DNA from: Rhynchobatus australiae
Taxonomy: Eukaryota
Direction: 5' to 3'
NCBI GenBank assembly: GCA_034780895.1
Contig: JAUZTB010000118.1
Coordinates: forward strand, 54,926,034 to 54,990,033
DNA length: 64,000 bases
The position numbers are program-made. Positions 15,001 through 18,000 of the stretch are shown piece by piece. The stretch's first letter is position 1. The number at the start of each line of letters is the position of its first letter.

Positions 15001-18000
15001 GACCACTTTGCTCATCATGCATTGCAAATTTTCTATCCATTTAAAATACAAATGGCCAATTATATATGCAAGCACAGTGCACTCCAGACACTAACCAGTT
15101 TAAATAACTGGTGTTCAAAAAATCTGTTACCCAGATGGCCTTGACCATCTGCTTATCAATGCACAACTGGGATGTTTTTCCAAGTGCCCCTTCTGTATAT
15201 ACAAGCATCTCTGCTCCCCCACAACAGATGTGGGGGAAGAAAAACACTTAGTAATTAGAATAGTCTTGCATCTGATCTATGAGCATACCGTTACACTTTA
15301 ATTGCCATGGTATGGTTCAGAAGTGTCTTGAGAATACGGATAACTAATTGAATAGATGTAGAGCAAAATACATAGCAAAAAAAAATAGATGTAGAGTAAT
15401 CAAACCAGTGGAAAACAAAATACCTACTCCATCCCATCTGTGCAAGCTTCAAGATTTGGCCACATTGAAACATCAAGTTAGCTTTTCTTCAAAAGAACTA
15501 CTATTTTTGCTGGAACAGCTCTGCACAATAGGAACACCAAAGATCATGGTGTTCACAATGTCAGAAGGATGTAAATCAAGTTACATCATTCTATTCCCAT
15601 CATTCATACAGCCCCATAGTATGGTACAGCATCTACCAAATAAAAATTGCTCCTATTGGAGGAGGACCTGGAAACTTGCATTTGTCCATAATGTAGTTCC
15701 TCCCCAAGATTCATGTGAGTGTTAGATTCCACCTCAAAATTCAGATTACAGCAGAATTTACATCAAGATAACCAAGATGAAGAGAAATGGAGTATTGAAA
15801 CATCCAGTGACAAATCATGTGCAGCCAAGAAAGGGAGAAGCCCTTCCCTTCCTCCCAGCACACAGAAATCAATTAACATAAAAGAGGTCATTCAGCCCAG
15901 ACCACTACTGCTGACTTGAAAGAGCTTGCAAAATAACTTCACTTCAGCAATTCTGCACCAAAGGTCTGTATTCCTTTCACGTTCAGTATTTTTGCCAAGA
16001 ACTTCCTAGCAGTGCCAGGCCTTCCACGTTCACCATTCACCTACTGACCACCCGCACTTGCCTGACGATGATCCTCAAGTGAGGGAGGCTGACTCCAATT
16101 TCATTGGCAAGGTCCGGCAGTAAGATTTTCCAGATACCAGTTCCATACATGTACCAAGGCCAGAATAAGCTCAACCCACTGAAACACTAGAAGAAAAAAA
16201 GCTGTCCACCAGGTAAGCTACAGCTGTCAAAAACATTCAAAATCAGATCCTACCTAGATCGCTCTCTTGAACAATGTATTAATACACTTTCCCCAAGACC
16301 ATCATCACATCTCAAGCCAAAGTAACCTTGAGGGTTCTTTGTTGAACTTTACCTTGTCCTCTTGTTCATCTCAGCTCTGGACAGAGCTTGAAAGACGGAG
16401 TCGTAAATGCGATGCTTGAACCACAGCTCATGCGCCACCTTCCCATAGATGCAGGCCAGTGTCACGAGTGGGACAAGGAACACTAGCAGCAGAATGACGG
16501 TGGTGTAGGCTTTCCTCTGCTGGGGCTGGTGCCAGACCTCCTGGCAGCAGATGTAGTGCACTTCGAAGAGGAAATCGTGCTGGACCTGCTCAACAATCAC
16601 ACAGCAACGTAACACAGCCGCTGAGGAAATCACTGATCCCTTTCGCAGACAGGTAGCAGACCGAACTGTGGAAGGGGTGAATGTGGGGCAGGCAGTGTGG
16701 AAGGTGAACAAAGAGTAGGCCACTTGGCCCCTCAAGCCTCTCCCACCATTCGATAGGTCCATGGCTGATCTGCCCCAGGCCTCATCTCCTATTCTCTGCC
16801 ACTTCCCCATTAAACCCTCAAATCACTGATCATTCCAAACCATATTGACTTCTTCAAATACTCTCAATCATCCAGCCTCCACAAACATCTGGGGCCGAGA
16901 ATTCCAGAGATTCACCACCCTCTGTCAGAAGAAATTCCAAGGATCTTTTACGTTTCAGTAAGGTCACCACTTCTTCTCCTGAACTCCAAAGAATATTGGT
17001 CTAATTTCTTAAGCCATTGAGGATAGGACAGCCCTCTCATGCCAGTTATTAGCCTTGTTCATCTGTTCTGGACTGGTCCCAATGCCAGTATTTCCCTTTG
17101 AACATAGAACAGTACAGCACAGGAACAGGCCCTTCGGCCCACAATGTCTGTGCTGGCCATGATGCCAAATTAAACTAAGTCTATCTGCCTGCAAATGATC
17201 CATATCCCTCCATTCCCTGCCTGTCTAAATGCTTCTTAAACACCACTATCTTATCTGCTTCCACCACCACCCCAGGCAGCGTGTTCCAGGCATCTAACAC
17301 TCTGTGTAAAAGAACTTGCCCGCACATCTCCTTTAAACTTTCCCCCTCACACCTTAAAGTTATGCCTTCTGGTAATTGACATTTCTGCCCTGGGAAATAC
17401 ACTCTGACCATCCACCCTATCTATGCCTCTCATAATTTTATAAGCTTCTTAACTAAGGGAAACAAAACTGTGTCCAGTAAAATTGTGAGGAGACAATTGG
17501 GTGGGAGAAGCAGGGGNNNNNNNNNNNNNNNNNNNNNNNNNNNNNNNNNNNNNNNNNNNNNNNNNNNNNNNNNNNNNNNNNNNNNNNNNNNNNNNNNNNN
17601 NNNNNNNNNNNNNNNNGCATGCATTTGCAAAATTATTTCATTTATTTTGATTTGAGAGGAAAGGAGACATCTTGGTTATTGGGATTTGTCAGTATTGCTG
17701 GCTTCCCACGAGTTTCAGCAATACTCCAGTGCAAGGGATTTCTTGCTGCTGGTGAGACCACCATAGTTATTACTGGCAGGATCTCCCGTGCCCTACTCCT
17801 CCCATTACACAGGACCTTCCTCCTCAGGACCTTTGGGATATTTTGTTTCACAGGAAGATCCAACTGGGAGTGCTACTCACAATCCTTTCACAGCCCACCA
17901 TAAACGGATGCATCATTACCTAGGTGACTATGCATACGATAGGCGATCAAATATTTGAAGTGAAATGTGGGACAAAATACTGACAAACCTTTTTGTGTTT

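What the first reader, a model, noticed from the sequence alone, without database searches (positions are those of the whole stretch)
16353..16585. Orphan but intact QRFP-receptor-like GPCR exon inside the presumed KANK1 intron
Seen: a 233-bp exon with AG/GT ends, phase 0 to 2, no stop or frameshift, visibly GC-richer than its flanks and retaining many CpGs in otherwise CpG-depleted DNA. It encodes the ECL2 Cys (CCQEVW), TM5 and ICL3 up to the Arg before KKKRA. Established (recalled): human QRFPR has an internal exon with these boundaries, and early vertebrates had several QRFPR subtypes, some lost in mammals. I found no exons for TM1-4 or TM6-7 in the readable sequence. Options: (a) an unannotated nested same-strand neuropeptide receptor with other exons in gaps or outside the window, (b) a recent duplicated exon that could be spliced into host 5'UTR transcripts, (c) a misplaced contig (its block is bounded by gaps 13662-13882 and the 100-N gap 17517-17616).
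Basis: partly seen in the sequence, partly recalled or inferred. Interest (0 to 1): 0.68.

Follow-up and report, generated by a model that had tools for sequence, protein, structure and literature searches.

The report
Lone exon of ray QRFP receptor
This is a real, intact exon of a known neuropeptide receptor gene (QRFP receptor, subtype-4 branch) in a ray-like fish, and it most likely looks isolated only because the genome assembly around it is full of gaps.

Summary
The 233-nt exon is real. It lies on the minus strand (16585 to 16353), has AG/GT ends and is open in phase 0 to 2. It encodes 77 aa: the end of ECL2, TM5 and the start of ICL3. It is 87-92% identical to residues 184-260 of full-length "QRFPR-like" proteins of five ray and sawfish species (E down to 7.7e-42). 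It sits inside their clade, within the branch that holds fish proteins named QRFPR4. It has two lineage-specific changes, both conservative. Its terminal branch is no longer than that of its annotated sister. All six human QRFPR contact or disulfide residues in this segment are kept, so it looks constrained. None of the other five inferred coding exons is in the readable window. The window has 23 gaps, five of them 100-N joins, one only 931 nt upstream. I read it as one exon of a normal gene in a fragmented assembly. No KANK1 sequence was found. DOCK8 3' exons lie upstream on the same strand (63.9-50.1 kb). A full-length SNORD98 snoRNA, hosted by CCAR1 in human, lies 16 kb downstream. The locus assignment, and a possible mis-join, stay open. 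Interest is low.

The parts
16353..16585 (-). Internal coding exon of a QRFPR4-type QRFP/26RFa receptor gene. It is the fourth coding exon in the orthologue plan inferred here. The 77 aa cover the end of ECL2 (with the CC pair), TM5 and the start of ICL3, in phase 0 to 2.
   Evidence: Translation. It is 87-92% identical over all 77 aa to batoid QRFPR-like proteins. Human QRFPR structures match at E 6e-18. It falls inside the batoid clade.
16586..16587 (-). Acceptor AG, preceded by a T/G-rich tract (..ctgtgttacgttgctgtgtgattgttgagcag|GTC).
   Evidence: Homology to orthologues begins at the first exon base.
16351..16352 (-). Donor GT (AAG|gtaaag). The two leftover exon bases AG fit the Arg that follows in all orthologues.
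17517..17616 (.). 100-N join 931 nt upstream of the exon. This is the nearest place where the upstream exons could be missing or a mis-join could sit.
   Evidence: That 100 N marks a gap of unknown size is a recalled convention.
13662..13882 (.). 221-N sized gap 2.5 kb downstream of the exon. It is large enough to hide the ~104-nt next exon but not the last one (at least 351 nt).
50075..63853 (-). Context: eleven matched segments of the 3' part of DOCK8, aligning to residues 1519-2072 of the 2088-aa carp DOCK8, in order on the same strand as the exon.
   Evidence: tblastn. The solved DOCK8 DHR-2 structure is the best PDB match. All named top hits are DOCK8.

Best explanation
The segment is a genuine, still functional internal exon of this elasmobranch's orthologue of the 'QRFPR-like' receptor annotated in rays and sawfish. 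That gene belongs to the QRFPR4 branch of the QRFP/26RFa (GPR103) receptor family. In the mature receptor these 77 residues would supply three things. First, the ECL2 cysteine that disulfide-bonds to TM3. Second, the ECL2 glutamate and the TM5 Tyr/Thr/Ile that hold the C-terminal Arg-Phe-amide of the peptide. Third, the TM5 Pro and Tyr used in activation, followed by the start of the G-protein-facing loop. It looks orphan because the window comes from a fragmented assembly. The other five inferred coding exons would then lie in joins of unknown size, in unplaced pieces, or beyond the window. The final exon cannot fit any downstream gap, so it must be more than 16 kb away if it exists. Shown: exon integrity, orthology, conservation of key residues, no rate acceleration, and absence of the other exons from readable sequence. 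Inferred: that the rest of the gene exists and is intact, that the exon is spliced and expressed, and the ligand. Which host or neighbouring gene surrounds it (KANK1 or another) is left open.
For: The exon is open with AG/GT ends. It is 67-71 of 77 residues identical to five full-length (411-443 aa) batoid proteins from five species, and pairs among those orthologues range from 66 to 76 of 77. It falls inside the batoid clade with SH-aLRT 100 (36-row tree) and 99 (exon-only columns). On the same 77 columns its terminal branch is 0.038, against 0.050 for its sister Pristis. Only 2 residues are unique to the window, V for L/M and I for V. Human QRFPR is the best solved match at E 6e-18, against 2.7e-5 for the next receptor family. 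Through that alignment, which is ungapped up to residue 62, human L193, C201, E203, Y214, T(5.39) and I218 are all identical, 6 of 6. A structure paper names these as disulfide, peptide-contact or pocket residues, or as a conserved polar residue near the peptide's Arg (passages of PMC11148045). P5.50 and Y5.58 are also kept. GC by codon position is 0.56/0.31/0.77 and CpG is retained, which is not what long neutral decay in this CpG-poor DNA would leave. It is not a retrocopy, because similarity ends at the splice sites. It is not a repeat, because the exon and about 500 nt on each side have no other copy in the window. The assembly is fragmented: 23 gaps, 3710 N, and five 100-N joins in 64 kb.
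Against: None of the other five inferred coding exons is in 60 kb of readable sequence. Twelve gaps lie between the exon and the last DOCK8 exon found. Of the sized ones, only the 577-N gap could hold a 327-nt first exon, so several coincidences or missing pieces are needed. No protein from the window's own species turned up (best identity 92%), so no gene model shows that the gene is whole here. No skate, shark or chimaera protein of this branch is among the 120 listed of 342 hits, so loss of the gene in parts of Chondrichthyes is conceivable. With only 77 residues the rate comparison has little power, and a recent break of the gene would look the same. dN/dS could not be computed because no orthologue DNA was available.
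Confidence: 0.65

Rival explanations
1. Mis-scaffolded piece. The exon belongs to an intact receptor gene, but the piece that carries it (window 1-17516, held together by sized gaps) is joined to the DOCK8-bearing sequence by scaffolding joins of unknown size and truly lies at another locus. This does not exclude the best explanation. It concerns location only.
For: A 100-N join lies 931 nt upstream of the exon, and four more 100-N joins lie between it and the upper end of the window, three of them before the last DOCK8 exon found. The same piece carries a full-length SNORD98 on the same strand (62.3 bits against a gathering score of 50). Its human host is CCAR1 (passages), a gene that I recall lies on chromosome 10q, not near DOCK8/KANK1 on 9p24.3. 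Larhammar et al. place QRFPR genes in the NPY-receptor paralogon, which includes human chromosomes 4, 10 and 8-like regions (PMC4208404, section 7). Exon GC3 is 0.77 against 0.43 pooled over 11 DOCK8 exon segments.
Against: There is no direct evidence of a mis-join. snoRNA hosts can change between lineages and snoRNAs can be retroposed. No CCAR1-like coding exon was seen upstream of the snoRNA: 0 of 10 longest minus-strand ORFs hit Pfam, and none was seen by eye. The non-coding DNA on the piece has the same low GC and CpG as the rest of the window. GC3 differs between genes for other reasons.
Confidence: 0.3
2. Relic exon. The receptor gene was broken recently in this lineage by deletion or rearrangement of the other exons, and exon 4 has not yet had time to decay.
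For: No other exon is in the readable window. The last exon cannot be hidden in any downstream gap. No skate, shark or chimaera member of this branch is among the listed hits. QRFPR subtypes were lost repeatedly in vertebrates, and none was found in elephant shark in 2014 (PMC4208404).
Against: There are two conservative lineage-specific changes and no stop or frameshift. The branch is no longer than the functional sister's. All 6 mapped key residues are kept, as are high GC3 and CpG. Both splice sites are intact. These facts allow only a recent loss.
Confidence: 0.12
3. Duplicated single exon. A complete receptor gene lies elsewhere, and this is a recent extra copy of exon 4 with some intron, possibly spliced into host transcripts.
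For: Only that the exon is alone and has good splice sites.
Against: There is no second copy, no duplication boundary and no repeat at its edges within the window. Included in a host transcript, a phase 0-to-2 exon of 233 nt would shift the frame. The pattern of conservation is what an orthologue shows. This cannot be excluded without the whole genome.
Confidence: 0.05

Closest known systems
Batoid 'pyroglutamylated RF-amide peptide receptor(-like)' proteins as named by NCBI: Pristis pectinata (P0005), Hypanus sabinus (P0002), Hemitrygon akajei (P0004), Mobula hypostoma (P0006), Mobula birostris (P0007)
   Same: They are 87-92% identical over the whole exon and share the segment boundaries (residues 184-260). 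The exon falls inside their clade.
   Different: They are full 7TM proteins of 411-443 aa, and here only one exon is seen. None is 100% identical, so the window is from another species.
QRFPR4 subtype of Larhammar, Xu and Bergqvist 2014 (PMC4208404): gar, coelacanth, teleosts, lamprey
   Same: The batoid clade plus the exon groups (SH-aLRT 100, 22 rows) with carp and Sinocyclocheilus proteins that UniRef names 'receptor 4', and with gar, bowfin, sturgeon, bichir and lungfish relatives. It is separate from the other QRFPR clade.
   Different: The paper's own reference sequences (coelacanth, lamprey) were not in my tree, and subtype names come from database labels. The paper found no certain QRFPR in a cartilaginous fish. 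Gar QRFPR4 lies with QRFPR2 and NPY8R on LG1, and no such neighbour is seen here.
Human QRFPR / GPR103 (solved structures 8WZ2, 8ZH8)
   Same: It is the best solved match (E 6e-18), aligning to residues 188-263. The ECL2 Cys pair, E45.52, Y5.38, T5.39, I5.42, P5.50 and Y5.58 are identical.
   Different: Human QRFPR is a different subtype (QRFPR1 in the 2014 nomenclature). The printed alignment is roughly half identical, and it carries one extra residue in ICL3.
Other RF-amide and related class A peptide receptors (NPFF1R/2R, PrRPR, oxytocin, CCK-B)
   Same: They share the class A TM5 pattern and the ECL2 Cys, with weak matches at E 3e-5 to 1e-2.
   Different: They score about 13 orders of magnitude weaker than QRFPR.

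Membership tests
Class A (rhodopsin-like) GPCR, Pfam PF00001 7tm_1 | Match to the 7tm_1 profile | tested here: inconclusive
   E 5e-4 and 20 bits, profile positions 136-189 of 260. This is below the 30.5-bit cut-off, as expected for one exon.
Class A (rhodopsin-like) GPCR, Pfam PF00001 7tm_1 | Seven transmembrane helices in one gene | tested here: not met
   Only TM5 is encoded in the readable window, and no other exon was found. The rest of the genome was not available.
Class A (rhodopsin-like) GPCR, Pfam PF00001 7tm_1 | ECL2 Cys45.50, Pro5.50 and Tyr5.58 | tested here: met
   C14, P39 and Y47 of the exon align with human C201, P226 and Y234. Numbering is anchored on C201(45.50) and Y214(5.38) as given in PMC11148045. 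The names 5.50 and 5.58 follow by counting.
QRFP/26RFa receptor (QRFPR, GPR103) | Closest relatives are QRFPRs rather than other peptide receptors | tested here: met
   Among solved structures, QRFPR scores 6e-18 and the next family 2.7e-5. All 6 hits are named QRFPR(-like). Of the 120 listed, all that carry a family name are named QRFPR or QRFP-like, and the rest are unnamed 'hypothetical' or 'unnamed protein product' entries.
QRFP/26RFa receptor (QRFPR, GPR103) | Residues in this segment that the human structure paper names: L193 (ECL2 tip), C201 (disulfide), E203 (salt bridge), Y214 and I218 (pocket), T5.39 (conserved polar residue near Arg25) | tested here: met
   All 6 are identical via the alignment. 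The residues are taken from passages of PMC11148045.
QRFP/26RFa receptor (QRFPR, GPR103) | Activation by QRFP peptide | not testable with these tools
   This needs the full receptor and an assay.
QRFPR4 subtype | Placement in the QRFPR4 clade | tested here: met
   A 22-row clade with SH-aLRT 100 holds the proteins named QRFPR4. This was a quick tree of 36 rows, 35 of them chosen by me from the 120 listed. The tool warned that long branches meet at the root.
QRFPR4 subtype | Synteny with QRFPR2/NPY8R as in gar LG1 | not testable with these tools
   No such gene is in the window, and no eukaryotic genome context was available. The paper's supplementary table of positions is closed.
Gene nested in a KANK1 intron | KANK1 exons on both sides, on the same strand | tested here: not met
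   No KN-type motif in six frames (using motifs recalled from memory). No long open frame. 0 of 10 downstream ORFs hit Pfam. Non-coding 5' exons could not be recognised, so absence is not shown.

The most novel reading that the evidence does not exclude
The assembly is right and the exon truly stands in a long same-strand intron downstream of DOCK8, together with an intron-type SNORD98. It would then be either part of a receptor gene nested in a host gene with very long introns, or a solitary exon kept under constraint because host transcripts use it. This would place a QRFPR4-type gene outside the NPY-receptor paralogon in cartilaginous fish and bear on the open question of where QRFPR4 came from.
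Probability: 0.1. Interest if true: 0.5.

Novelty: new member of a known kind. Interest (0 to 1): 0.2.

Why it matters
It adds one more cartilaginous-fish species to those carrying a QRFPR4-branch receptor. In 2014 no QRFP receptor could be found in this class (PMC4208404), although ray and sawfish orthologues are now annotated. In my searches this branch appeared among chondrichthyans only in batoids: six proteins of five species among the 120 listed of 342 hits. That hints at uneven retention and deserves a proper survey. For annotation, the practical lesson is that the exon should be attached to a receptor gene model once the gaps are closed. It should not be treated as a novel orphan or as KANK1 sequence.

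Tried and rejected
- **Other receptor exons in the window.** I ran tblastn with six batoid proteins at word size 2 and E up to 50. Only chance hits came back. A 10-residue match at 19776-19805 has flanks that do not fit the last exon.
- **Retrocopy.** Rejected, because similarity ends at the AG and GT.
- **Repeat or transposon origin.** Rejected for the exon and its near flanks. Only 17100-17443 is repeated in the window.
- **KANK1.** A motif scan found nothing.
- **Synteny by matching contig lengths of batoid DOCK8 and QRFPR-like proteins.** This failed. The last protein search is capped at 2000 aa and returned no batoid DOCK8. It only confirmed DOCK8 identity (Callorhinchus best, 75%).
- **Literature link between QRFPR and KANK1/DOCK8.** No relevant paper turned up in the listing of 20 of 89 papers. 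Three of the four papers listed for 'QRFPR4' (five hold the term) were checked by passages or sections, and none gives such a position.
- **Pfam on whole translated frames.** Stop-free ORFs gave nothing.
- **Rfam.** It gave only SNORD98.
- **Not tried.** Structure or complex prediction was not needed. The bacterial genome collection is irrelevant. No search of the closed metagenome and viral collections was made.

Full report
**Observation**

Read from 16585 down to 16353, it is preceded by AG (16587-16586) after a T/G-rich tract and followed by GT (16352-16351) in the context AAG|gtaaag. The 233 nt give 77 codons plus two bases and hold no stop.

GC is 54.5% against 38.6% for the window. There are 8 CpG, with o/e 0.46 against 0.18. 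Of 1094 N-free windows of the same size, 0.5% reach its GC and 0.8% its CpG count. One correction applies: about 250 nt of intron on its 5' side are as GC-rich as the exon, and only the 3' side is poorer.

The exon's contig is bounded by a 221-N gap (13662-13882) and a 100-N gap (17517-17616). The window has 23 gaps, 3710 N in all, and five of them are exactly 100 N.

**What it encodes**

Pfam sees a weak 7tm_1 match (E 5e-4, below the cut-off), as expected for one exon. Among solved structures the best match is human QRFPR at E about 6e-18 over residues 188-263. The next receptor family, oxytocin, scores 2.7e-5.

In the 5.8-billion-protein set, searched for longer proteins, all 6 hits are proteins that NCBI names pyroglutamylated RF-amide peptide receptor(-like). 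They come from five batoid species: Pristis pectinata, Hypanus sabinus, Hemitrygon akajei (two isoforms), Mobula hypostoma and Mobula birostris. They are 87-92% identical over all 77 residues, with E from 7.7e-42 to 1.1e-38.

The alignment to human QRFPR is ungapped up to residue 62. The structure paper (passages only) names these human residues:
- L193, the ECL2 tip
- C201, the disulfide cysteine
- E203, which forms the salt bridge to the peptide's Arg
- Y214, which forms a cation-pi contact
- T5.39, a conserved polar residue near that Arg
- I218, part of the pocket for Phe-amide

All six are identical in the exon. The TM5 Pro and Tyr that fall at 5.50 and 5.58 by counting are also kept.

**Orthology and constraint**

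A search with the full Hypanus protein gave 342 hits, of which 120 were listed. After the six batoid proteins the next are lungfish, bowfin, sturgeon, gar, paddlefish and bichir at 49-56% identity, then teleosts, among them carp-family proteins that UniRef names 'receptor 4'. No shark, skate or chimaera protein is in the list.

I built a quick maximum-likelihood tree of 36 rows: the exon plus 35 proteins that I picked from the 120, leaving out 85 (mostly teleosts, and one isoform).
- The exon falls inside the batoid clade (SH-aLRT 100), next to Pristis (91).
- The batoid clade falls in a 22-row clade (100) with the QRFPR4-named proteins.
- That clade is apart from a 14-row clade of other QRFPRs.
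- The tool warned that long branches meet at the root.

On the 77 exon columns alone, the exon's terminal branch is 0.038 against 0.050 for Pristis. The exon differs from the five full-length orthologues at 6-10 of 77 positions, within the range those orthologues show among themselves (1-11). Only two residues are unique to it, V for L/M and I for V.

GC by codon position is 0.56/0.31/0.77. The exon therefore behaves like an orthologue under purifying selection. With so few sites, only a long period of neutral decay is excluded. This last point is my inference. dN/dS could not be computed because no orthologue DNA was at hand.

**Is it orphan?**

Comparing isoforms gives an exon plan for the orthologues:

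| Inferred exon | Residues | Basis |
|---|---|---|
| 1 | 1-109 | upstream of the segment skipped in isoform X2 |
| 2 | 110-162 | skipped in Hemitrygon isoform X2 |
| 3 | 163-183 | between the skipped segment and this exon |
| 4 (this exon) | 184-260 | boundaries seen in the window |
| 5 | 261 to about 294 | ends at the junction marked below |
| 6 | about 295-411 | a 32-residue insert in one Mobula protein marks the last junction |

tblastn of the six proteins against the window finds only this exon, and the next best hit has E 0.79. The last exon needs at least 351 nt. The five gaps downstream are at most 221 N, so it must lie more than 16 kb away or be absent. Upstream, twelve gaps (1794 N) lie between the exon and the last DOCK8 exon found. 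Among the sized ones, only the 577-N gap could hold a 327-nt first exon. Three of the twelve are 100-N joins, whose true size I take as unknown (a recalled convention).

The exon is not a retrocopy, because similarity ends at the splice sites. It is not a repeat.

**Surroundings**

- On the same strand, eleven segments from 63853 down to 50075 match residues 1519-2072 of the 2088-aa carp DOCK8, in order. Identity is 55-94%, better than to alligator DOCK6.
- The best solved match of one exon is the DOCK8 DHR-2 domain.
- All named top hits of another exon are DOCK8, with Callorhinchus best.
- A weak CpG-rich patch lies at 33.6-35.2 kb.
- No KANK1 sequence was recognised.

At 61-125, again on the minus strand, Rfam finds a full-length SNORD98 (62.3 bits, gathering score 50). 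Its human host gene is CCAR1 (table passages in two papers). I recall that CCAR1 lies on 10q, in the paralogon where Larhammar et al. place QRFPR genes (section 7 read).

The snoRNA shares the piece 1-17516 with the exon, and that piece is broken only by sized gaps. The exon's GC3 is 0.77 against 0.43 pooled over the DOCK8 exon segments. Together these keep open the possibility that this piece is joined to the DOCK8 region in error. Neither fact proves it.

**Verdict**

This is one exon of a known kind of gene, a new species' copy of the batoid QRFPR4-branch receptor. It is most likely part of a whole gene that the fragmented assembly does not show (0.65). A mis-join of its scaffold piece (0.3) is compatible with that reading. 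A recently broken gene (0.12) and a duplicated exon (0.05) are rivals. The finding is ordinary for a specialist. The points worth following are the patchy presence of this branch in cartilaginous fish and its true neighbours.

**Limits**

- I take the window for elasmobranch, not human.
- N stretches were left as they are.
- No eukaryotic genome context, orthologue DNA or RNA-seq was available.
Supplementary Table 1 of PMC4208404, which gives chromosomal positions, could bear on the synteny question.
- The closed metagenome and viral collections were not searched.

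Noticed in passing
window 61-125, minus strand: Full-length C/D-box snoRNA SNORD98 (Rfam RF00607, 62.3 bits against gathering 50, model 1-65 of 65). It lies on the same strand as the receptor exon and 16.2 kb downstream of it. Its human host gene is CCAR1, and no CCAR1-like exon was seen upstream of it in the window.
   Followed up: partly
window 50075-63853, minus strand: Eleven matched segments of the 3' part of DOCK8 (DHR-2 region). The frame of the last one meets a stop right after ..HRETK, but the DNA there reads like a GTAAGT donor, so one more short coding exon may follow below 50075.
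   Followed up: partly
window 16353-16585 against 50075-63829: Third-codon-position GC of the receptor exon is 0.77. It is 0.43 pooled over the 11 DOCK8 exon segments (range 0.24-0.66), although the non-coding DNA around both is similarly AT-rich. This is unexplained.
   Followed up: partly
window 33600-35200: Weak CpG-rich patch (CpG o/e 0.5-0.96 at GC 0.33-0.49), interrupted by gap 34295-34408. It could be a promoter, for example of the gene downstream of DOCK8, but nothing ties it to a gene.
   Followed up: no
window 21967-22470 (+) and 50737-51105 (-): Open frames that look by eye like remnants of a LINE reverse transcriptase (..FKFLG..I..DL.W..H..). The second lies in a DOCK8 intron. Neither was searched.
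   Followed up: no
window 17100-17443, with copies at 18272-18578, 35518-35633, 36145-36196 and 8424-8530: Interspersed repeat (69-91% identity between copies) just inside the exon's contig, next to the 100-N join.
   Followed up: no
proteins: Among the 120 listed relatives of the Hypanus receptor, the only cartilaginous-fish proteins are six from five batoid species. No shark, skate or chimaera protein of this branch appears.
   Followed up: no
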